Source: a virus. From it: a stretch of DNA of 64,000 bases. The stretch lies in the IMG/VR virus record IMGVR_UViG_642555139_000003, one strand, 5' to 3'. Of this stretch, positions 45 to 13,300 are shown piece after piece. The first letter of the stretch is position 1; each line of letters opens with the position of its first letter. Under the pieces are notes generated by a model. That model saw only the letters and a program-made list of their open reading frames with translations. It was not told the DNA's origin and ran no database searches. A program made the translations under genes and the position numbers.

Positions 45-3000
45 TTATGAAGCGACGGGCTCGGTCAGGTTGATGAGCACGGTGTTGTTGAGGCTGATGG
101 CCTTGGCGTTCTGGGCGGTCTCGTTGAGATCGATTTCCCAGAAGTGCTTGGTGGCAGGATCAAAGCTGTTGTTGGCCGGCGCAGAGATCGGCGTGACGCC
201 GCGCGGGGCTTGGTTCGACGCAACGAGGTATTCGATCAGCTTCGAGCCATCGCCCAGCGTCGTGTCGGACGCCTGATCCTGCGCATCGAACGGCAGCCAG
301 TCGGGCGAGTCCCAGCCGCCGGCGCCGAGACAGCGGATGCCGTCGGCACGCTCGGTCCAGGCGTTGACGCCGCCGGCGGGGTTCTCGACGAACCGGACAC
401 GGCGCGTCGCCATGAGGTTGTGGACGTGACCATGCACGAAGATCGCCTGCGGGTACTGCTGCACGATCGGCAGGATCTGCTCGCGCATCAGCCTCGGCGC
501 CGTGCTGCTCCAATCGGCGTTGGTCAGTCCGGACGGTCCGATGTGCCCCATGACGATGATGTGGCGGTAGCGGCTCGCTCGGGCGGCGAGAAGATCCCGC
601 AGCCAGGGCACCTGCTCGGCCAATGGCGTGGCGTGGTTGGTCTCCAGGGCGACCACCAGCAGCTCGGTCCCAACCTCGAACCAGCCGTAGCCGCGCGCTG
701 ATGTGTTCGCCGCGCCGCGCCGGTAGAAGGTCGAGAAGATCTTGTCCATGTAGCCGTAGACGCCCTGACCGTTGTAGGCGCCGCCGGCCGGGTTGCCCCC
801 CGTGGTGTCGCTGGCCTCGTGATTGCCCGCGATGGCCGCGATCGGGATCAGGCAGCCGTCCGCATCCACGAAGCGGCTCGACCACGCCCCGATGTAGTCG
901 CGGCACCGCTGCGTCAGCGCGGCAGAGGTGTTGCCGTCGTCTGCGAAGTGGTCGCCGCCCATGAGGATCAGATCGGCGTTGCGGGCCGCGACGAGGCCGC
1001 TCAGCACGTTGAAGTGGCTCAATCCGTAGAGGGCATTGGCCGAGTCGCGCTGCCAGTCCGAGACCACGGCAACCCGCAGGCTGCGCGCCCGGTAGTTCGG
1101 GAGCGTGCGGAACCGGCGAATGGCGGCAGCGCCACTTCCGGCGGCGCGCCACTCGTAGATCGTCTCCGGGGTCAGGTTGGTCACCGTCGCGAAGAAGACC
1201 CGATCCGTGGAGGCCGGAAGATCCTTCGCAACAGCGCCCGCGCTCATCCAGCTTGTCGAGCCGAGCACCCGATACTCGGCGGCCTTCGGCGCGGTGTTCG
1301 GCGCGTGCCACGTCAGGGTCATGTCCCGGCTCGGGTCGCTCGCAACCTCGACGCGGTGGAGGGTGGCAGCATTGCCCGAACCACCTCCGGAGGCTGCGGA
1401 GGCGCCGCTGCTCAAGGCGATCATCTGAGCGTTCGACAGCGGGCGCGGCAGCAAGAGCGCGGTGTGAACCGTGCCCATGAAGGCGTCGGTGCCCTCTCCC
1501 GTCCGGCTGCCGATCGCCATGACGGGGAACCCGATCAGCTCGTTGCTGCTGGGCGCGCTGGCGACGTAGAGGGTGCCGTTGACGGCAATGGCTTGCCGGC
1601 CGGGCTCCCATGACGCCGCCACGGTCACATCCGTGTTGAGCGGCACCGGCACGCTGTTGACGACGACCGTCTGCCCCGAGAACACGCACCCGAGATAGAC
1701 GAGCCCGGTCTGATCCACCGTGACGTGAAGGCGGTTCGACTCGTTCACGTAGACGCTGACGACCCGCCGACCGCCGGCCCCGACGGCCTGCAGCCGACTG
1801 ACGCGGAACCGGACGAAGAGCGCGCCGACATCGCGGAAGCGCAGGGGAGCGGACTTGATCGCCGCCGCAGCACGGACACCCGGCGTATTGGCCAGCGCCG
1901 GGATGTAGGACGTGGAGATCGGCTGCTTCTCGATCTGCGCGCCCCAGATCCAGAGCCCCTTGGTCGGGTCGCCTGGGTAAGCCGTTGCCTGCGCACCCGT
2001 GCCGTCGGCCGCAAGCGCAGCGACGAAGCGCATGGTGCCGGTCGAGGGCGGGATGAAGCTGACCGTGACGCGGATCCAGCTCGTCCTAACCCGCTCGACG
2101 AACACCTTGATCGTCGTCCCCGAAACCTGAACCACCGTGGCCGCCAGCAAATCGATGATGGCATTCTCGGTCGGCATCCCCGTGTCGATCTGCACGAAGG
2201 CCCGCGTGCGCTCGCCGGGGAAGTAGAAGATCGAGCAGGTGGTGAACTCGCCCTGATTGACGGCGAAGGTCTGCGTGACGCCGTGGACGCCGTTGTCCGT
2301 CGTCTCGGTCAGGCGGGTCGGGTTCGGAGAGTTGGCCGGGGACTGCGGATTGGCCTCCAGGGAAGCCGTTACGCGAGCCTTGGTCCAAGCTGCGTTCGTG
2401 AAATCTTCTGAGTATCGCGCAATATTTTCCGACGCAGGGTCGATGCGCCACCCGAGATAAGCCCCTGTATCACGGTCGTATTCGTGCGGGACTTCATTGG
2501 CGCCGACATAGTCGATACGCTGACGCTCATCGATGCGCGAAGCACCCGAATTGCGCACGAACGGCAAGACAGCGGAGTTAACGTTGGGCGCCGCCGCCAA
2601 GCCCATGACCGGCAGCGTCGGCAAGCCGAGTTGCTCGCCAACTCCCGCCAGCGACAGGACCGACATTTGGCTGTCGATGGAGGGGACCGATGGCGCGAGA
2701 TAGGCCCACGTCTTCGAGCCGTTGACGAGGCGAAGCTCATAGATCCCGGCATTCGGCGGCGTTGCGACCTGGCGGATCGTCCCGACGGCAGGGCTCGTGT
2801 CGGCCACCAGCTCGGCATAGGTCCGGTTCGGGGCGATCTGCGCGGCGCTTGCAGCGGCACCCGTTGCTGTGCTGGCTGCGCTCGCGGCCGTGCTGGCTGC
2901 GCCCTGGGCAGTGCCGGCGGCAGCATCCGCCGTGCTCGCCCGGAGATCCGCGAAGCTCGCCGCGGCTGACGCGGTGCCGGCGGCGCCGGCTGCAGTCCCC

Positions 3001-3509
3001 GCCGCCTGCTGAGCGAGGTCGCGGGCAGCCTCGGCCTCGGCGGTGCTGTCCGCCTTCAGCTGCAGCGGCTGACCGGCCGACCAATCCGCTGCGCTATTGG
3101 TATTGGCCCGCTTCACGAACAGCGTGAACGGCAGCGGGTCGACGCTGAGATAGACGAAGTCGACGGGCTGGTCGTTGTAGGCGTCGCGACCCGGCCGCGG
3201 GCCGGAGGCGTCCCACTTTACGGGCCCGGCCTCGAACTTGCTCAGCAGCGCGGCGAGCTGCCGGTTCGTGGCGACGCTCGACTGCCAGTAAGGGCCCGTG
3301 TTGGCGATCACCCACTCGACAGCCCCGGCACGGCTCTCGCCCGGCCATGGCTGCTTGAGGGTCAACTGCGTTGACGAGTCCCGAGAGGCGATAGCGACCG
3401 CCATGCCGTCGAGCATGAACAAGTCGAACTCAGCCGCCACGAAGGACGTGAGGGTTCCAGTGACAACAGGGGATCCTGCCGCCACCGTGATACTGTTTGC
3501 AGCCGCCAT
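45..3509 (-). CDS. Tail fibre/receptor-binding protein with LamG-like domain and C-terminal purple acid phosphatase-like (FN3 + metallophosphoesterase) module
   Basis: ORF 45..3551, with likely start ATG 3509 after a GAGG SD. N-terminal fibre anchor, Ala-rich stalk, spike-fibre-type and LamG-like segments, GGGSG linker, then motifs SDWQ, GGDH, GNHE, MGH and GHVH. Located directly downstream of the tail-tip genes. Confidence 0.8.
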   Translation of the reverse strand: MAAANSITVAAGSPVVTGTLTSFVAAEFDLFMLDGMAVAIASRDSSTQLTLKQPWPGESRAGAVEWVIANTGPYWQSSVATNRQLAALLSKFEAGPVKWDASGPRPGRDAYNDQPVDFVYLSVDPLPFTLFVKRANTNSAADWSAGQPLQLKADSTAEAEAARDLAQQAAGTAAGAAGTASAAASFADLRASTADAAAGTAQGAASTAASAASTATGAAASAAQIAPNRTYAELVADTSPAVGTIRQVATPPNAGIYELRLVNGSKTWAYLAPSVPSIDSQMSVLSLAGVGEQLGLPTLPVMGLAAAPNVNSAVLPFVRNSGASRIDERQRIDYVGANEVPHEYDRDTGAYLGWRIDPASENIARYSEDFTNAAWTKARVTASLEANPQSPANSPNPTRLTETTDNGVHGVTQTFAVNQGEFTTCSIFYFPGERTRAFVQIDTGMPTENAIIDLLAATVVQVSGTTIKVFVERVRTSWIRVTVSFIPPSTGTMRFVAALAADGTGAQATAYPGDPTKGLWIWGAQIEKQPISTSYIPALANTPGVRAAAAIKSAPLRFRDVGALFVRFRVSRLQAVGAGGRRVVSVYVNESNRLHVTVDQTGLVYLGCVFSGQTVVVNSVPVPLNTDVTVAASWEPGRQAIAVNGTLYVASAPSSNELIGFPVMAIGSRTGEGTDAFMGTVHTALLLPRPLSNAQMIALSSGASAASGGGSGNAATLHRVEVASDPSRDMTLTWHAPNTAPKAAEYRVLGSTSWMSAGAVAKDLPASTDRVFFATVTNLTPETIYEWRAAGSGAAAIRRFRTLPNYRARSLRVAVVSDWQRDSANALYGLSHFNVLSGLVAARNADLILMGGDHFADDGNTSAALTQRCRDYIGAWSSRFVDADGCLIPIAAIAGNHEASDTTGGNPAGGAYNGQGVYGYMDKIFSTFYRRGAANTSARGYGWFEVGTELLVVALETNHATPLAEQVPWLRDLLAARASRYRHIIVMGHIGPSGLTNADWSSTAPRLMREQILPIVQQYPQAIFVHGHVHNLMATRRVRFVENPAGGVNAWTERADGIRCLGAGGWDSPDWLPFDAQDQASDTTLGDGSKLIEYLVASNQAPRGVTPISAPANNSFDPATKHFWEIDLNETAQNAKAISLNNTVLINLTEPVAS

Positions 3510-3601
3510 CAGCTCGCCCTCGAAGATCGAGGCGCGATGCCAATGCTTCACGCATCCTCGCTCAAGGATGCGATGGGCAGCCCATAAACTGGTTGCGGCT
3601 G

Positions 3602-3802
3602 TCAGCCGGCGGAGCCGCCGGCGTCCATCTCGGCCTGAGCGTAGTCGATCTCGACATTCGCAAGGGTCATGACGAGGTTGGTCTGGCCGGGGCCGACGAC
3701 GGGGCCGGCATGCATCACCGGGATCTCGGCATCGCCGATCCTGACGGCCACCACTTGGCCGCCCACGTTCTGCACCAGTGTGATGCTTGTTTTCTCGGTC
3801 AT
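3602..3802 (-). CDS. Small tail-associated hypothetical protein (66 aa)
   Basis: ATG 3802 overlaps the stop of the J-like gene and lies between J and the fibre gene. Confidence 0.55.
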   Translation of the reverse strand: MTEKTSITLVQNVGGQVVAVRIGDAEIPVMHAGPVVGPGQTNLVMTLANVEIDYAQAEMDAGGSAG

Positions 3803-4549
3803 TACTTGCTCTCCTCTACTGACAGCGTGATCCCGCCGACTCCGCAGTTGTTGGTGTCGACAAGCTCGTAGGTGTGAGATCCGGCACCGGGCATGTCGAC
3901 ATATTCTAGCATTGTCGGCATCAAGATTATGAAATTGCCTCCAGCCGTTGGATCCCATTGGTAAGAAACCACCGTGGCGGACTCAAACAGGAGACCTCCA
4001 TTTCGGAAGATGCGGAAGTTGCCACCTTGGAAACCGATGGACGGAAAGCGGCGGCTTGGATCACCTCTCCGACTGGCCGTGAGAGTGATCTCCTGTGAGG
4101 TTCGGACATTAATCGTCAGCGAGACAGACTGCCCGCTATTTGGCTTTGTAACTTTGCTGGAAATTCCGCCGTCCTTGACGTTGACGTTATCGACGACCAG
4201 GCTGCCGATCTGGGCCGAGTTGACGATCAGGTTCTCACCCGCCAGCGCTCGACCAGTGATCGAGCCGTCAACGAACAGGTCTCCGCGCAGGCGCAGATCG
4301 AACGAAACGGTCCCGTCGAGCTGGCGCACACCGGTAAAGACGAAGCCGCCGGCCTGCCCGTCGATATAGCCGGTGACGCCGTACTGAACTTTGATGCCGT
4401 CGATCGAGGTGCCGTAGGTCGTGAGCGTGGCGGAGTGTCCGCCCACCGTCGAGTTGAGCGCCTGGATCGACTCAGCCTGCGCCGTTAGCGTTCCGTCAAC
4501 GACGTTCGCTCGCGTCAGAAGCGCCTGAGCCGCTCCGGCATTGGCGCTA

Positions 4550-5399
4550 GGGTCAAAACCGCATCAAGGTGTTGCGTGGGCTGTAGTTTTATGATTCGAG
4601 GCTGCCGTTTGCAGCGCGGAGGCGGCGGTGGCGGATCTGTTCTGGCTCTCGGATGAGCAGTGGGCGGTGATCGAGCCGTTCCTGCCCCGCAATCAGCCCG
4701 GACCCGAGCGCAAGGACGACCGGCGGATCATCTCCGGCATCCTGCACGTGATCACCGCAGGCTGCCGCTGGTGCGACTGCCCGGATACCTACGGCCCGTC
4801 CACCACGGTCTACAACCGCTTCAACAGGTGGTCCCGCCGCGGCTTTTGGCGCGCGATGCTGGCCGCCCTGGCCAAGGCTGGATGGGCTGGGGACGCGGCC
4901 GCCCTCGACAGCACCTATGTCCGGGCCCACCGCTCCGCCCACGGTGGCAAAGGGGGGCTCGCACGCAGGCCATCGGCCCGTCGCGCGGCGGCCAGACGAC
5001 CAAGGTCCACGCGCTCACCGACGTCCTCGGTCGCCCCGGCGTCCTTCTGCTGACGCCAGGCAACGCCAGCGACGTGACGACCGCGCCAGCCGTACTGGCC
5101 GAGGCGCCCGGCCGCATCCGCCGTCTGGCCGCCGACAAAGGCTACGACGCCGACTGGCTGCGCACCGATCTGCGGGAGGCAGGCATCACGCCCGTCATCC
5201 CGGGCAAGCGCGGCCGAAAGCGGAAGATCCGCCACGACAAGCGCCGCTACCGCGAGCGCTGGCGCATCGAGGCGACCTTCAACCGCCTCAAGGACTTCCG
5301 CCGCATCGCAACCCGTTACGACAAGCTCGCCCGCAACTACGCTTCCGCCCTCGCGCTCGCCGCCGTCATCGCCTTCTGGTGCTGATCGAGTCTCGACCC
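4550..5399 (+). mobile_element. IS5 family (IS427-group-like) insertion sequence, 850 bp
   Basis: Imperfect TIRs GGGTCAAAACCGCATCA / GGGTCGAGACTCGATCA, TA duplication (4548-49 and 5400-01) at a CTAG target, and a two-ORF transposase. Confidence 0.92.
4628..5385 (+). CDS. IS5 transposase (orfA 4628-5053, orfB to 5385) joined by -1 frameshift, about 252 aa
   Basis: DUF4096-like N-terminus (WLSDEQW...WCDCP..YG...YNRFNRW) and DDE motifs (LDST, ADKGYD, RWRIE). AAAGGGGGG at 4949-4957 marks the frame switch. Confidence 0.9.
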
Positions 5400-8300
5400 T
5401 AGTCTGCTCGGCCAGATATAGCGCTGCGCTTTCCAAGGCCGTAACGCGGCCAGCCGTGGAGCTGATGCCTCCCTCGGACGTAGAGACGCGGGTTGTGAGT
5501 TGATCAAGCGCAGTGGCCGTGCCGCTGATCTGCCCGCCTTGCGCCGACACAGTGCTCTCAAGGACCGCAACGCGGCCGACAGCGGAGATGATCTCGTCTT
5601 CATCTTTAGACACTCGCGTCGTGAGTTGATCCAGAGCGGTTGCCGTGCCGCTGATATGCCCGCCTTGCGCCGAGACCGTGCTCTCCAGCGTGGTCACGTC
5701 TTCGGACAGCGAGAAGATGTTGCCCTCGGCGGTGCCGACCCGCGTCGTCAGCAGGCTGACCGCCGTCGCCGTTCCGCTGATCTGGTTGCCCTGATCGGTC
5801 ACGGTGCTCTGCAGGCTCGTGAGCGACTGGCTAAGGGTTTCGATCCCGCCTTCAGTGACGGTCACCCGGGTGGTGAGTTGCTGCAGGGCCGTCGCTTGGC
5901 CCGAGAGGCCGCCCTCTGCCGTGGTTAAGCGCGTGTCGAGAGCCGTGGTGATCTCGGCTAGCGCCTGATCCGCCGCGATCATCGCCCGTTCGGTGCGCTG
6001 GATCGCGGCATAGTTCGCGCTGCTACCGACCTTGATCAGTTGGCGCTGCTCGTAGGCATTCGCCTCCTGCGTCGCCTGTGCGGCTGCCAACTCCTCGATG
6101 TAAGCGGCAAGCTGCTGCTGGGCCCCGCGGAGGGTATCGCGCGCCATGCTGAGCGCCACGACCGTCGCGTCGCGCCCCTCGGCCAACGCGCCTGACCCGA
6201 GCGCATTGATGTCCTCGATGTCCTTTCGCGTCTGGGCCGCCAGCTTCTCGATGGTTATAGAGAGATCTTTGAAGAGGTCGCCGTCGATTGACAGAGCAGG
6301 CACTTCACATGCCCGTTCAACGAACCGGCAAAGGATGCCGTTCGGCGTGATGCAGGCCACACGCACCCAGGCCTCGGCAACGTCGGCCATCGGGATCTCG
6401 AACGTCGTCCGGCTGTTCCTGTGCGCCTCAGCCCAGGTCGCCCTTCCGTCAATGCTGACCTGCGCGAGATAGAGTGCGGCCCCAGCAACCGGATCCCACG
6501 AGGCCGTCAGGAACAGGCCGGCTCCTCGCTGGAATGCACGAGCCGACAGACGCGAGATCATCGGCGCCAGCGACTTGTCGAAGATCGCCGGCACCTGCGG
6601 GATCGGCGGCACGCTGCCGGGGGTCGCCGCGTACACCTCCTTGGCCTCGATCACCGTGTCGATCGTCGCCACGAAGTCGCGCATGGTGGCAGCCACCACC
6701 AGCCCTCGATATTCTCGGGGGCTGCCGGCCGAGAAGGAATAGCTCGGTGGATCCTCCGTCTCCTCGCGATCGAGCACTCGGGCGTAGATCGAGCCCTGGC
6801 TCGCCTCTACGGCGGCGAGATCTGACTGCGAGAGGGCAACCACGGATGCCGTGACACTCGCCACGCGGACGGGGCCGTAGGGGCGCCCATTGCGCTGCCG
6901 CAGCAGGATGAAGTGCGACTGCCCGGCCTTCCAGGTCACAGGCCGATCCACGGTGAGCTGCAGCACGCCGTTGACGTTGAGGTAGGCCCGGACCTCCCCC
7001 CCTTCGCCCCATGTCTGCGGCAGCTCGCTTTGAATGAGCACCAGGTCGCCGCGCTTCAGCATGCGGCCTTCCAGCTCGCACTGAAACTGCACTCGGCGGC
7101 GCCGGTACCGGTTCACAGCCGCGAGGTACGCGGCGCAATCGGCGGCTTGCCCCGCCTTGGACACGCCGGGCATCTCCACCCTGGCCGGGCGCAGCAACCC
7201 CTCGATCGAGGCCACGCTCGCGGCGCGGTTGGTCCGCTCGTCGAAGTAATTCACCACCACGCCGTCGGCCCACGTATCGTCGAGCAGCTGACGCTTGATG
7301 GTCAGCGAGCCGCGGACGATCTCCTGGTCGGTGAAGACCATGCGGGGACTCTTCGGCTCGTCCCGCACCACGCTGAGCCGGTCACCGATGAAGGCCGGGT
7401 TCGCCTTCACGACGCGGAGCGCAGTCTCGATCGCGTCCTGGATCGAGATCGAGTCCTCGAAGAAGTGGTCGAAGGTGTCGCCCCGGGCGTCGGCCGCATC
7501 TCGCTGATAGAGCAGGTCGGGCAGCACGAGGTTGGCCTCTGACAGGCCGGCCGAGTAATCCGCGTTGCGCCACATATCGATCGCGGCGTCGATCGGATTG
7601 CGGCTTTCGGCGAGCTGCCAGAGGCCTCCCTGGAAGACCTCGATCTTACGACGGGCGATGACACCGATGCGATTCTGCGTGCCGCCCGAGGTCTGCGCGT
7701 CCGCCTTCATAAGGGTCGCCAGCATGGTGACGCCCGTGAAGGCCTGCGGCCCGTCGATCAGAGCGCGGGCGCCGGTCCAGGAGACATCGTCATGCGCCTG
7801 AAGATCAGGATCGAGCGTGACGTCCTGATAGGAGTCGTTCCGTCGCTTCGACCGCACCTGCCAGCGGCCACCATCGACCGCGATCTTCTCGGTGACGCGG
7901 TGAGCGACCTTCGTGCTGATGCTGTACGTCTTGTCCAGCAGCGTGATCCACGGCGCACTCTCGCCGCCGATCGGCGCGCCGGCCTCGTCGACCTTGCGGC
8001 CTTCAGCGAGGACCAGCGTGTTGACCGGGTACTCCTTTCCCTTGCGAGTCGCGCCGGCGCCAGACGGCCAGACGAAGTCGAGCCAGATCTCCTTCGCGTC
8101 AGTCTCCGGCGGGTTGATGACGAACGGGCCGAGGTAGCCCTGCCGGACAGGATCCTTGCTCGGGCTTGGCAGGCGCTGCCCCGAGACCTCTGACGCCGAA
8201 GTGACGTTCACCGGGAAGAGCGTCACCTGCTCGCCGGGGAGCACCCACTGGAACTGGATGTCGGCGAAGGCCGGGTTCAGGCCGTCGAGCGCCGTCCACC

Positions 8301-8991
8301 ACGGGGTGTCGTCGAGAAGGAAGCGTTGAGGCTCGTAGACGCCGCAGCCGATGCAGAACAGCTGGTAGAGGAACTGATCGTCGCCGTCGTATGTAGAGTA
8401 GGGCGGGGCGGCGTACTCCGGGTACCGGAGGCGCTGACCATACCCGACCGGGATCATGCCGAGCGGCCGGGCCTGATTGCTCGATGCTGAGATGCTGTAG
8501 AGCGACTTCGCGCTCGCCGCCGGCTGCGCCGCCTTCGGTTTCATGAATTGGCTGAGCAGCGCGCCACCCGCGGCCAGGACAAAGCCGGCGAAGATCGAGC
8601 TGTAGGCCACACCGCCAATGGTCGCCCCGGTCAGTCCCATGGCGCCCGCGATGGCGCCGCCGGCATACGGAGCCAGGACCATGAGCGCGACCATCGCGAC
8701 GATGCTGCCGATAGTCTTGGCGGTCGACGGCCGCCCGTCGCTTCCGCCGCCCAGGCCGGGCCGCGAGACGATGACGATCTCGTGCGAGGCCTCGATGTGA
8801 ATCGTGGTCAGCTCGGTTGGCCGGATCACGCGGCCATCGACGAAGCAGCGGGTCGGCAGGTCGAAATGCCAGTTCACCCGCTCAATGAAGCCTTGAATCG
8901 TCTCGCCTTCGCGGGCCGGCTCAGCGTTCAGGACGAGGAGGGGATGACCATCGGGCGCCAGGAGCTGGTGCTGGATGGAGCGGGCCATGGC

Positions 8992-10352: not shown

Positions 10353-13300
10353 CAGCTCTGCTTCCCTGACATCCTGTTGAGGCCGTACATGTCCTGCAGC
10401 GCCTGAGCGAGCGGGCCATTGCCGGCGAGGTCGGCGCCGATCACCGACCTGATGAACACGTCGGCCGACTGCCCCGTCTGCGTCCGTTTCTTCTGCACCT
10501 GCGGTGTCGTGCCGGCCGGCGGATGCACGTTCACCGTCATCTCGCCGCCGCCCCCCGACATCTCCGACAGCGTGCCGATCGCATTGGACAGGTTCTTGGC
10601 TGTGCGCCGGCTGAGCACGGGCTCACCCCGCTGCAGGATGGCAGGGATCTCGTCCGGCCCGAGCCCGAGGTTGCCCTTGTGGAACCGCGGGGCGCCCTGG
10701 AGCACCGACAGAGGGAAGGTGCGCGTCGAACTGCCGGCGCCCGCGATGCCGCCCTCGTGCAGCCACTCGAACGAGCCGACCGCGCCAGCGTTCACAGCAT
10801 CGAACGACCCGCCACCGCCACCGCCGGACAGGCCACCGAAGAGCGAGGTGATGAAGGACAGTGGGCCACCGCCACCGCCGACCGCGGCGGACGAGAGCCC
10901 GGATTTCAGCATGTTGATGAGCGGCTGCACGAGCGCAATCTGGACGCCGAGCCGGACGATGGTCTGGAGGAAGCTGCTGGCGACGTCGTCGAAGCTCTTG
11001 AACCCGAGAGCAGCCTCGCCCAGCTCGCCCGCGAAGTTGCCGACCGAATCCGCCGTCTGATCGATCCAGCGGTAATTCTGGTACTTCGACAGCGAGTCGG
11101 CGAGCGCCATGCCGTACTGATCGGCGGTGATCTTGCCCTCTGCGAGCAGCATGTTCAGCTTCTGCTGCTCGGCGTTCACCTGCGGCAGGATCTGCTCCGC
11201 GTTGCCGTAGGCCTGGATGATCGTGCGGTACTCCTTGCCGGCGTCGCGCATCACGAGCGCCTCGCGCAGCTGCTGAGCCTGCTGCGGCAGCGGCGCTCCA
11301 GCCTTGATCGCGTCCACGGTGTTCCGCAGCAGCGTGGGCTCGCCCTTGATCTTCTTCAGCTCCTCGATGAGCGCGCGATCCGTATCGGTGAAGAAGGCGG
11401 CGCGCCCCTCCTCGGTGAGGCGCTTCAGCCGATCCTCGAACTTCTCCTCCTCGGATTTGGGCTCCTTCTTCGGTTTCCGGCCGAGCGCGCTGATCCGCTT
11501 CTGGAGATCCTCCTGCTCACGAACGTTGCGCTCCACGGCCGCACGGTCGGCTGCGGGCGTGCGGGCCATAATCTCGTTCGTGGAGGCCTCGACCGATTTG
11601 CCCTCGGCGCGCAGGCGCATGTTTCGGGTCTTGGCCTCCAGGTCGGCCACCACCTTAGCCCCCTTCGCAGCCTCGGCCGCGATCGCCTCGGACACCTCCT
11701 TCCCGTCCGCGGAAACGCCGACCTTCACGACGACGTTCGCGACCATGCCATCGAGCTTCGAGATGTCGATGCCGAGAGCCTGCAGCGTGGCGCGGGCCGA
11801 CAGTGCTTTCTCAGTGGCCGCGGCGAGGCTGTCGATCAGAGGCGCGAAGCTTGGATTCGCATTGCGCAGCTCCTGGAGCTGCATCGCGTATTCCTCAACC
11901 GTCGTTTTGCCGGCGGTGAAGGCTGCTACCGCGTCGTAGACGTCGGTGGGCACAACCTTCTGAGATACGAGGCCCGAGGCCTCCGCCCTCGCCTGACCGA
12001 GGGCGGTTGCGAAATCGGCGATCTGCTCCCGCGAGGTCGAGAGCCCGGGGAACTCGATTCGGGTCTCGCTCAGCTCGGTGATGCTGTCCTTCACCGAATC
12101 CACGAAGGACTCGACCGCTGCCTTAGCCGCTGAGCCGTCGAACCGGGGCGCCCTCATCAAGTCGCGATCAAACGGCGAGTCGAAGACCGGTGTCGTCGCC
12201 TGCGAGGCCTTCAGCGCGGCCTGGGCATCCATCACGACCTTGATGCCGTCCTTCAGCCGCATGTAGCTGTCGATCGCCGCGTCGGCGTCTTTCCCGAAGC
12301 GCGGATCGACGTTGGCGATCGCGACGTAGAGGTCGCGGATCTGCTCAAGCGCCCGCCTTCCTTCCTCCGAGGCGGCCGGCTTCGTCGTCACGTCGACGAG
12401 CGCATTGGACAGGTTGATGCCCGTGGCCTGCGCCGCTGCGCCGGCCGGGCTGCTCGTATCTCGGTACGAGCTGTTCGATTGGAGCCGCTGTCCCAGACGG
12501 AGGAGGGTGTTTCGCTCATCGTTCAGGGATCGGAACGCGCCCTTCTGCAGCTCCCGGTACCGGACCGTGTCGGCATCGCTGAGGACCTTGCCCTTGGCGG
12601 CGTTATCGCTGACCTCCTTCGACCGCGCGGCGAGCTTGCTCAACGCGTCCGCATGATCCCGCGCCGCCTCCGCTGCCTTCGCCTGGCTGAGGGCATAGAG
12701 CGACAGGCCGACGGTCGCTGCCGTGAACGCGGCGCCGAGCGGCCCGCCGAGGAACGCCAACAGCGAGCCGAATCCTGCCTGCGCCAGCCGCATCGTGGTC
12801 GACAGCAGCGTCACCGCGGCGCCGGTCCGCGCTGCGGCCGTGGCCACACCTTCCTGCGCTAGCCGGTAGCCGGCAGCAGCGATGGTGGCTTGCTGCTGCG
12901 CAGCGCCGACCGCCTTCGTCGCGTTCGCCACCGCGTTCTGGCGCACCTCCTGGTCGGCGAGCCCTAGGATCTCGCGGCTCGTGTCGAGCTGGCCGGCGGC
13001 ATTGCGACGAGCGACGGCGGCGTCCGCGACCTGCACCATAAGCCCGCGGTTGGTCTCACCTCGCTCGATCGACATCCTGTCGATGACGGCAGTCTTCATC
13101 TCGCGATCGGCCGCCGCGACCTTCCGCTTGGCTTCCTCGACGCGTCCGCTCGCCGCCACGACGCGCTCGGCCGCCTCCGCCTCGGCCTTTCGCAGATCCT
13201 CCTGGATTGCCGTCGTCGATGCGATGGCCTTGTTCAGCTGCTCCTGCACGCCGAGGCGCGAGTCCTGGAAGCGCCCGCGCGCCGCGTTCTCCCGCTCGAC

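What the first reader, a model, noticed from the sequence alone, without database searches (positions are those of the whole stretch)
45..1370. Tail fibre fused to a purple-acid-phosphatase-like metallophosphoesterase
Seen: after the fibre anchor, stalk, spike-type and LamG-like segments, a GGGSG linker leads to an FN3-like domain (MTLTWH...VTNLTPETIYEWR). A catalytic domain follows with D(SDWQ), GD, GNHE, H and GHxH metal ligands in order. There is no signal peptide, so the enzyme would be virion-tethered. Established: phage fibre enzymes are usually glycosidases, lyases or esterases. Inference: this may be a receptor-modifying phosphoesterase acting on phosphorylated surface glycans or LPS, or a virion-borne phosphate scavenger.
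Basis: partly seen in the sequence, partly recalled or inferred. Interest (0 to 1): 0.8.

Follow-up and report, generated by a model that had tools for sequence, protein, structure and literature searches.

The report
Phage tail fibre tipped with phosphoesterase
A prophage in a Methylobacterium-type chromosome encodes a 1,154-residue side tail fibre that really does end in an intact metal-dependent phosphate-ester-cleaving enzyme domain; this domain belongs to a little-known clade found mostly at the ends of phage fibres, and no one has tested what it does.

Summary
Window 45-3509 (minus strand) is one uninterrupted gene. It runs: tail-fibre anchor, Ala-rich stalk, GTA-head-spike-fibre domain, LamG-like domain, GGGSG linker, FN3-like domain, metallophosphoesterase domain.

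- **Fold:** an AlphaFold model built on 86 homologues (pLDDT 93.9) matches plant purple acid phosphatases best (TM about 0.7).
- **Active site:** D832, G866-D867, N910-H911, H1003, H1042 and H1044 are invariant in all 86 homologues. The tyrosine that defines purple acid phosphatases is absent (A870). Motif I reads D-x-Q instead. It is therefore PAP-fold but not a true PAP.
- **Not an artefact:** the identical protein occurs on five contigs. Relatives at 67% and 43% identity sit at the same position in other siphovirus tail modules.
- **Clade:** a tree separates ordinary secreted bacterial enzymes from a 52-member clade. That clade holds all 32 fibre-fused forms, plus a few Tat-exported cellular forms nested among them.

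The function is inferred, not shown. Most likely the virion displays the enzyme, which binds or cleaves a phosphate-containing surface polymer. LPS is an unlikely target, because the LPS of the related M. extorquens carries no phosphate.

This scan has already noted PAP-like enzymes on phage fibres in at least 11 other genomes, for example the crAss-like "phosphatase" proteins. I therefore class this as a new variant of a known but untested kind.

The parts
45..3509 (-). Side tail fibre gene (1154 aa from ATG 3509; stop codon 45-47). A GTG at 3551 would add 14 residues.
   Evidence: The database copy P0002 is 1154 aa and is found on 5 contigs.
3057..3509 (-). N-terminal anchor (P0001 residues 15 to about 165), the presumed attachment to the tail tip.
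   Evidence: phrog_28473 'tail fiber protein' matches residues 13-104. The same anchor type is seen in P0024. P0003 and P0004 lack it.
2802..3056 (-). Ala/Thr/Gly-rich stalk (residues about 166-250).
   Evidence: Read directly from the translation. No family match.
1866..2444 (-). GTA head-spike-fibre type domain (residues 370-562).
   Evidence: NCBIfam NF048003, E 7.9e-34, 117.8 bits against a cut-off of 36. It lies inside the phrog_5939 'tail protein' match at 330-719.
1425..1784 (-). LamG / concanavalin-like domain (residues 590-709), suggestive only.
   Evidence: Pfam Laminin_G_3, E 2e-4, 22 bits, below the cut-off of 27.6. Relatives of this region, P0167 and P0169, carry PF13385.
1374..1388 (-). 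GGGSG linker (residues 722-726).
1104..1352 (-). FN3-like N-terminal domain of the PAP fold (residues 734-816).
   Evidence: Pfam Pur_ac_phosph_N, 32.1 bits against a cut-off of 30. It is an all-beta block in the model, pLDDT above 95.
417..1079 (-). Dinuclear metallophosphoesterase core (residues 825-1045). Proposed ligands and catalytic residues are D832, Q834, D867, N910, H911, H1003, H1042 and H1044. H973 is clade-specific.
   Evidence: Pfam Metallophos, E 2.9e-12. Invariant columns in 86 sequences. Fold match to kidney bean PAP, TM 0.68-0.74.
48..416 (-). C-terminal beta-rich extension of the enzyme domain (residues 1046-1168), with the conserved DPATKH-x-W motif.
   Evidence: Modelled at high confidence. 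Conserved across the close clade.
3602..3802 (-). 66-aa ORF between the J gene and the fibre gene, conserved with the fibre on other contigs. Role unknown.
   Evidence: 66-aa gene called in L003-L006.
4551..5398 (+). 848-bp IS element (DDE transposase, programmed-frameshift type) that splits the J-like central fibre gene (pieces 5399-8988 and 3802-4550).
   Evidence: blastn against L004, which is 100% identical but lacks the insert; 4-bp overlap at the joint. Pfam DDE_Tnp_1 and DUF4096.

Best explanation
The gene encodes the side tail fibre of a lambda-like temperate siphovirus integrated in a Methylobacterium/Methylorubrum-type chromosome. Its distal end is a folded two-domain enzyme module: an FN3-like domain plus a dinuclear metallophosphoesterase core of the purple-acid-phosphatase fold.

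Shown:
- The fusion is real and recurs in other phages.
- All metal-binding and catalytic residues of the superfamily are kept under strong constraint.
- The module belongs to a clade that is mainly carried at the C-terminus of phage fibre proteins, with occasional exchange with Tat-exported bacterial enzymes.

Inferred:
- The module folds and takes up its metals in the cytoplasm. Its Tat-exported relatives must do the same.
- It is displayed on the virion.
- During adsorption it binds a phosphate-containing surface polymer of the host and hydrolyses a phosphoester bond in it. The target is more likely a capsule or exopolysaccharide phosphodiester or phospho-substituent than LPS. The role would parallel that of glycosidase, lyase, esterase or GDPD tips of other phages.
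- Because it lacks the PAP tyrosine and has D-x-Q in motif I, the metal pair is probably not the Fe(III)-M(II) centre of true PAPs.

The confidence given applies to the whole chain, including the inferred catalytic role at the cell surface. The structural part (a real fibre-enzyme fusion with an intact site) I hold at about 0.95.
For: - **Gene position.** Order on the minus strand is tape measure, DUF1833 minor tail, J-like central fibre, 66-aa ORF, this gene, then a PG-binding/CHAP lysin.
- **Fibre domains.** N-terminal and middle parts hit tail-fibre PHROGs and the GTA spike-fibre domain.
- **Fold and family.** Model pLDDT 93.9, pTM 0.93. Best PDB folds are plant PAPs, E 1e-22, TM 0.68-0.74. 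A profile search also puts PAPs first, E 4e-26.
- **Active site.** D832, GD867, N910, H911, H1003, H1042 and H1044 are invariant in 86 homologues at a mean column identity of 24%.
- **Recurrence in phages.** Relatives P0003 (67%), P0004 (43%), P0009, P0010 and P0027 all lie in phage structural modules. In P0010 the enzyme is a separate gene directly behind a 664-aa gene, which looks like a split version of the fusion.
- **Clade structure.** A branch with 100% support separates 34 short cellular enzymes from a 52-row clade holding all 32 fused forms. The Tat-signal protein P0008 is nested beside the query.
- **Modular shaft.** The middle shaft occurs elsewhere with other tips, for example an arabinofuranosidase-like domain or SPRY/DUF7483. 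This is typical of exchangeable receptor-binding tips.
Against: - No biochemical, proteomic or expression data exist. RNA-library contigs cover the gene only in scattered low-depth pieces and may be DNA.
- The best-studied close relative of the host has LPS without any phosphate, and no phosphate-bearing surface polymer of Methylobacterium is known to me. The substrate is therefore hypothetical.
- Fibres are trimers, while PAPs are monomers or dimers. The oligomeric fit could not be modelled within the size limits.
- The prophage copy in this window has its J gene broken by an IS, so this copy probably makes no infectious particles.
- Conserved ligands would also be kept if the domain only binds phosphate groups without turnover.
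Confidence: 0.5

Rival explanations
1. The tip is a metal-dependent binding module only. The dinuclear site grips a phosphate or another anionic group (Kdo, GalA, pyruvate) on the receptor and holds the phage on the cell without cleaving anything.
For: Ligand conservation is equally needed for binding. The host relative's envelope is rich in non-phosphate anions and lacks LPS phosphate. Many fibre tips are lectin-like, and the adjacent LamG-like domain is of that kind.
Against: The general-acid/transition-state histidine of GNH (H911) and the clade-specific H973 are also invariant or nearly so. This is more than binding needs. The Tat-exported cellular members of the same clade are presumably working enzymes.
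Confidence: 0.2
2. The enzyme is virion-borne but does not act on the receptor. It clears matrix material on the way to the cell (extracellular DNA, nucleotides, phospholipid or polyphosphate), or it frees phosphate or progeny after lysis.
For: The superfamily includes nucleases, nucleotide and lipid phosphodiesterases, and the profile also hits Rv0805, SMPDL3 and Mre11. PAPs and PhoD are phosphate-scavenging enzymes.
Against: The enzyme sits at the extreme distal end of a modular receptor-binding fibre, the place where specificity domains are swapped. A stoichiometric, tethered enzyme is a poor scavenger. The nearest folds are PAPs, not nucleases.
Confidence: 0.15
3. The protein is not a tail fibre but a head or other decoration fibre, like the head spikes of gene transfer agents, with the enzyme displayed on the capsid.
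For: The strongest single domain hit is NCBIfam 'phage head spike fiber domain'.
Against: The gene follows the J-like gene and precedes lysis, the usual side-tail-fibre slot. The N-terminus hits tail-fibre PHROGs. Homologues sit after tape-measure and hub genes.
Confidence: 0.08
4. The fusion is an assembly or frameshift artefact, or a decaying pseudogene in a dead prophage.
For: The neighbouring J gene is interrupted by an IS in this genome.
Against: The ORF is identical on five contigs from different samples, some with intact J. The same architecture is conserved at 67% and 43% identity in other phages, with all catalytic residues kept.
Confidence: 0.01

Closest known systems
Plant two-domain purple acid phosphatases (kidney bean PAP 1KBP/4DHL, sweet potato 1XZW, wheat purple acid phytase 6GJA)
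   Same: Same two-domain fold: an FN3-like N-domain plus a metallophosphoesterase core (Foldseek E 1e-22, TM 0.68-0.74; profile E 4e-26). Same order of the five motif blocks. Six of the seven ligand positions are kept.
   Different: About 15% identity. The Fe(III)-ligating tyrosine of GDxxY is absent (A870), and motif I is D-x-Q. It is fused to a 720-residue phage fibre and has no secretion signal. The histidines after motif IV that help PAP catalysis are missing, and a clade-specific His (H973) appears elsewhere.
Tat- or Sec-exported bacterial PAP-like metallophosphoesterases (for example P0008, 43% identical; described bacterial example: Burkholderia cenocepacia 'purple alkaline phosphatase', cited in PMC13560708)
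   Same: Same domain over its whole length, including the C-terminal extension. P0008 is nested next to the query in the tree.
   Different: They are stand-alone proteins of about 460 aa with a twin-arginine signal, in cellular gene neighbourhoods, and are not part of a virion protein.
PAP-like or PhoD-like genes already annotated in phages: Microbacterium phages Rowlf gp26 and EK1 gp47 (PMC12352085, PMC13560708), Bacillus phage G gp352, Crassvirales 'phosphatase' tail proteins (BFVD hits; scan notes)
   Same: Phage-encoded PAP/PhoD-fold metallophosphoesterase domains, usually at the C-terminal end of a longer protein. Function is stated as unknown in the papers.
   Different: Only remotely related. 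There is no tblastn hit in 50,697 phage records. Unphazed gp47 is PhoD-like and aligns at hhalign E 5e-8 over 207 columns. cr7_1 matches at TMq 0.37. They have different partner domains (a lamin-tail domain in crAss-like phages) and different hosts.
Glycerophosphodiester phosphodiesterase (GDPD) domains on baseplates or tail tips of Gram-positive phages (Staphylococcus phage 812/K; PMC13433997, listed)
   Same: A precedent for a virion-borne phosphodiester-cleaving enzyme used at the cell surface (teichoic acid).
   Different: Unrelated fold (TIM barrel against a metallophosphoesterase sandwich). The host is Gram-positive with a known phosphodiester polymer. No GDPD match was found in this fibre.
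Bacillus subtilis PhoD (PDB 2YEQ)
   Same: FN3-like domain plus metallophosphoesterase core; Tat-exported. Structural match E 4e-16.
   Different: Lower structural score than the PAPs (TM 0.50-0.56). No Pfam PhoD hit for this protein.

Membership tests
Calcineurin-like metallophosphoesterase superfamily (PF00149) | Five motif blocks in order: D-x-[H], GD, GNH[E/D], H, GHxH | tested here: met
   Pfam E 2.9e-12, 47.9 bits against a cut-off of 21.5. D832, GD867, GNHE 909-912, H1003 and H1042-x-H1044 are invariant in 86 sequences. Motif I has Q834 where most members have His.
Purple acid phosphatase, two-domain type | FN3-like N-terminal domain preceding the catalytic core | tested here: met
   Pur_ac_phosph_N, 32.1 bits against a cut-off of 30. 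Fold match over both domains.
Purple acid phosphatase, two-domain type | Tyrosine ligand of Fe(III) in GDxxY (one of the seven invariant ligands) | tested here: not met
   The position is A870. In the query's clade it is N, S, A, D or G. Tyr at this position occurs almost only in sequences that lack Q/H in motif I.
Purple acid phosphatase, two-domain type | Fe(III)-M(II) centre, purple colour, acid phosphomonoesterase activity | not testable with these tools
   Needs purified protein, metal analysis and assays.
Phage side tail fibre / receptor-binding protein | Gene in the tail module, after the central fibre/hub gene and before lysis, with similarity to tail-fibre families | tested here: met
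   Homologues are in the same slot.
Phage side tail fibre / receptor-binding protein | Trimeric fibre present in the virion and needed for adsorption | not testable with these tools
   No proteomics or structure is available. A trimer of the tip exceeds the size limit of the complex predictor.
PhoD-like phosphatase (PF09423) | Match to the PhoD profile | tested here: not met
   No PF09423 hit at E up to 0.01. 2YEQ ranks below all plant PAPs.
Crassvirales-type 'phosphatase' tail proteins | Lamin-tail domain joined to the PAP-like domain; close structural similarity | tested here: not met
   No lamin-tail hit in Pfam. cr7_1 protein matches at only TMq 0.37. No tblastn hit in phage records.
GDPD tail phosphodiesterases | GDPD (TIM-barrel) domain | tested here: not met
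   No GDPD family hit for this protein. The model is a metallophosphoesterase sandwich.

The most novel reading that the evidence does not exclude
The 52-member clade defined here (D-x-Q/H motif I, no PAP tyrosine, conserved C-terminal DPATKH-x-W extension) is a distinct, undescribed class of phage receptor-processing enzymes. These would be phosphodiester-cleaving 'depolymerases' for phosphate-bridged or phosphate-decorated capsules and exopolysaccharides of high-GC Gram-negative hosts, and they would be traded repeatedly between phage fibre tips and Tat-exported bacterial enzymes. If so, it would also point to an unknown phosphate-containing surface polymer in Methylobacterium, whose LPS has none.
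Probability: 0.3. Interest if true: 0.7.

Novelty: new variant of a known kind. Interest (0 to 1): 0.5.

Why it matters
Enzymatic fibre tips decide which cells a phage can reach, and they are mined as tools such as capsule depolymerases. Nearly all characterised tips cut sugars or remove acyl groups. The only characterised phosphodiester-cutting ones are GDPD domains of Gram-positive phages.

A PAP-fold metalloenzyme tip with a fully conserved active site, recurring in dozens of phage fibres and swapping with secreted bacterial enzymes, would add a new chemistry to phage adsorption. It would also give a handle on phosphate-bearing surface polymers of plant-associated Alphaproteobacteria.

The idea is directly testable with one soluble 450-residue construct. 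It is tempered by three points:
- similar fusions are already visible, though untested, in other phage groups;
- this scan has met them repeatedly;
- no substrate can be named for this host.

Tried and rejected
- **Single-sequence AlphaFold** of residues 715-1168 gave pLDDT 37 and was discarded. The alignment-based model was used instead.
- **Sequence search of the PDB** with the single protein found nothing. Only the profile did.
- **tblastn against 50,697 phage records:** no match.
- **Pattern-based scans:** Genome contigs returned only one weak Amycolatopsis hit, and viral contigs returned none. The host range of the clade therefore could not be mapped.
- **Whole genome:** none is held for the window. 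Context beyond base 1 came from the encoding-contig look-up.
- **Expression:** four RNA or possibly-RNA runs hold only scattered contigs of 150-300 bases at depth 2-6, which may be DNA carry-over. There is no evidence for or against transcription.
- **Gene neighbourhoods of cellular relatives** (P0008, P0023, P0038) gave no functional hint.
- **Literature searches** for tail fibre plus metallophosphoesterase, PAP or phosphatase found only genome announcements without function.
- **LPS phosphate as substrate** was considered and marked down because the LOS of M. extorquens is non-phosphorylated.
- **Trimer modelling** of the tip was not attempted. Three copies exceed the 1000-residue limit, and no binding claim depends on it.
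- **Active-site geometry** could not be measured because model coordinates are not exposed to the script box.
Full report
**What is there**

The window starts inside the tail module of a prophage. The longest contig that carries the same protein is NCBI CP001029.1, a 5.80-Mb chromosome. From my own knowledge this is Methylobacterium (Methylorubrum) populi BJ001.

On the minus strand the gene order is as follows:
- a 1644-aa tape measure protein (PF20155);
- a DUF1833 minor tail protein;
- a J-like central fibre (PF13550, phrog_31);
- a 66-aa ORF;
- the gene in question, 45-3551;
- beyond the window's first base, a PG-binding/CHAP lysin and further small genes.

The ORF is open for 1168 codons from a GTG. 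The database copy (P0002) begins at the ATG at 3509, behind a GAGGGCGAG tract, which gives 1154 aa. I use P0001 numbering (1168 aa) throughout.

**Domain map**

- Residues 13-104 match a tail-fibre PHROG.
- Residues about 166-250 are an Ala/Thr/Gly-rich stalk.
- Residues 370-562 are a GTA head-spike-fibre domain (NCBIfam E 8e-34). This lies inside a 'tail protein' PHROG match at 330-719.
- Residues 590-709 give a sub-threshold Laminin_G_3 match.
- GGGSG lies at 722-726.
- Pur_ac_phosph_N covers 734-816 and Metallophos covers 825-1045.
- About 120 further residues are conserved with the enzyme domain in relatives.

The one qualification is that the LamG assignment is weak.

**Is the fusion real?**

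- The identical protein is encoded on the NCBI chromosome and on four Logan contigs from other runs.
- One of those contigs is 100% identical to the window over 13.5 kb, except that it lacks an 848-bp IS that splits the J gene here.
- In 5.8 billion clustered proteins only two close full-length relatives exist, P0003 (67% identity in the tip) and P0004 (43%). Both have about 1000 aa and both sit after the tape-measure and hub genes of other siphovirus tail modules.
- They lack the query's first 150 or so residues. They share the shaft and, most strongly, the tip.

An assembly or frameshift artefact is excluded.

**The enzyme module**

An exhaustive profile-free search found 508 relatives of residues 725-1168, of which 35 had E below 1e-30. 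An 86-sequence alignment with 24% mean column identity keeps D832, G866, D867, N910, H911, H1003, H1042 and H1044 invariant. G909, H973, Q980 and W983 are nearly invariant.

With this alignment AlphaFold2 gives pLDDT 93.9 and pTM 0.93. The single-sequence run had failed.

Foldseek puts kidney bean, sweet potato, wheat and lupin PAPs first (E 1e-22 to 1e-19, TM 0.64-0.74). PhoD follows (E 4e-16), then the mammalian PAPs. A profile search of PDB sequences agrees.

The fold is therefore PAP-like, but one defining feature fails. The tyrosine of GDxxY is A870 here. Across the alignment, Tyr at that position and Gln/His at motif I +2 are almost mutually exclusive: Q with Y once, H with Y twice, out of 86. 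The query's clade has in effect reverted to the general metallophosphoesterase arrangement (D-x-H/Q), so it should not form the purple Fe(III)-tyrosinate centre. That last step is inference.

**A fibre-associated clade**

A maximum-likelihood tree has a branch with 100% support that separates two groups.
- The first is 34 short proteins, 19 of them with signal peptides and none fused.
- The second is 52 proteins. It holds all 32 forms with N-terminal extensions longer than 120 aa, 15 short forms without a signal, and 5 with Tat or Sec signals.

The extensions hit many different PHROG tail, tail-fibre and virion families. Every context I checked for signal-less members with enough flanking sequence was a phage structural module: P0003, P0004, P0009, P0010 and P0027. 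The contig holding P0024 was too short to judge.
- In P0010 the enzyme is a separate 457-aa gene placed 3 bases after a 664-aa gene, which looks like a split version of the fusion.
- One phage (L017) has two large metallophosphoesterase-bearing proteins in tandem.

Tat-signal members (P0008 with an RRLFLR motif, P0023, P0038) are scattered inside the clade. P0008 is nested beside the query with 96% support, and their gene neighbourhoods are cellular or uninformative. This indicates repeated exchange between phage fibres and exported bacterial enzymes. It also shows that the domain can fold in the cytoplasm, as Tat substrates do and as a phage structural protein must.

The shaft region (260-724) occurs in other proteins with different ends, for example an arabinofuranosidase-like catalytic domain or SPRY plus DUF7483. 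The enzyme therefore occupies the exchangeable, specificity-determining end of a modular fibre.

**How it probably works**

Shown:
- an intact, strongly constrained dinuclear phosphoesterase site;
- at the distal end of a tail-module fibre;
- with no secretion signal.

Inferred: the module is displayed on the virion and acts on the host surface. It would bind a phosphorylated polymer and cleave a phosphoester bond, in the way other fibre tips cut glycans or remove acyl groups.

The GTA spike-fibre domain is known (from my own knowledge of RcGTA head spikes) to bind capsule. This fits a capsule or EPS target.

The LOS core and lipid A of M. extorquens AM1 and PA1 carry no phosphate at all (PMC10052234). 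I cannot name a phosphate-bearing surface polymer in this host, which is the main weakness of the mechanism.

Alternatives are non-catalytic metal-mediated binding of an anionic group, action on matrix components such as eDNA or lipids, or a head-fibre location. Phosphate scavenging by a stoichiometric tethered enzyme seems unlikely.

**What is known already**

- Genome announcements report PAP-like genes in Microbacterium phages and state that the function is unknown (PMC12352085, PMC13560708). I found Unphazed gp47 to be a 669-aa, PhoD-like, only remotely related protein.
- BFVD holds viral proteins of the same fold, all longer than the domain: Bacillus phage G gp352, several unnamed entries of 640-1140 aa, and more distantly a cr7_1 'phosphatase' and an Enterococcus phage Idefix virion protein.
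- Notes of this scan record PAP-like modules on fibre-like proteins in at least 11 other genomes, mostly crAss-like and jumbo gut phages. No look-alike of this sequence was among them.
- GDPD phosphodiesterases on staphylococcal phage baseplates are an established functional precedent with an unrelated fold.
- No paper found here tests a metallophosphoesterase fibre tip.
- PHROGs v4 has no family covering residues 725-1168, and 50,697 phage records give no tblastn hit.

**Verdict**

This is a new variant of a known but untested kind: enzyme-tipped phage fibres, specifically PAP-fold phosphoesterase tips. It defines a coherent clade with a non-PAP metal site.

Interest is moderate. The chemistry would be new for Gram-negative phage adsorption and is easy to test. 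However, the theme recurs in databases, and neither the substrate nor the activity is known.

Noticed in passing
window 4551-5398 (J gene pieces 5399-8988 and 3802-4550, minus strand): An 848-bp IS (DDE transposase with DUF4096, two overlapping frames) splits the J-like central fibre gene, with a 4-bp duplication at the joint. A Logan contig (L004) is 100% identical but lacks the IS and has an intact 1444-aa J. The prophage copy in this genome is therefore probably tail-defective.
   Followed up: yes
L005 against window 10419-11548: Another contig carrying the identical fibre has a 1128-bp deletion inside the tape measure gene (1387 aa against 1644 aa). If that phage is functional, it would have a shorter tail.
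   Followed up: partly
L017:5575-12312: A phage contig (terminase, SU10-type portal) encodes two large proteins in tandem, 1045 and 1103 aa, both carrying a metallophosphoesterase domain of this clade.
   Followed up: no
L011:6004-9374: In one phage the enzyme (P0010, 457 aa, no signal peptide) is a separate gene starting 3 bases after a 664-aa gene with no family match. This is a possible split form of the fibre-enzyme fusion.
   Followed up: partly
window 3602-3802 (minus strand): A 66-aa ORF lies between J and the fibre gene and is conserved with them on all contigs that hold the fibre. It has no family match and could be a small fibre adaptor or assembly factor.
   Followed up: no
window 45-3551, public runs: Near-identical copies of the fibre gene turn up in drinking-water, algal and aquatic metagenomes from several studies. 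This fits a widespread water- or plant-associated lysogen.
   Followed up: partly
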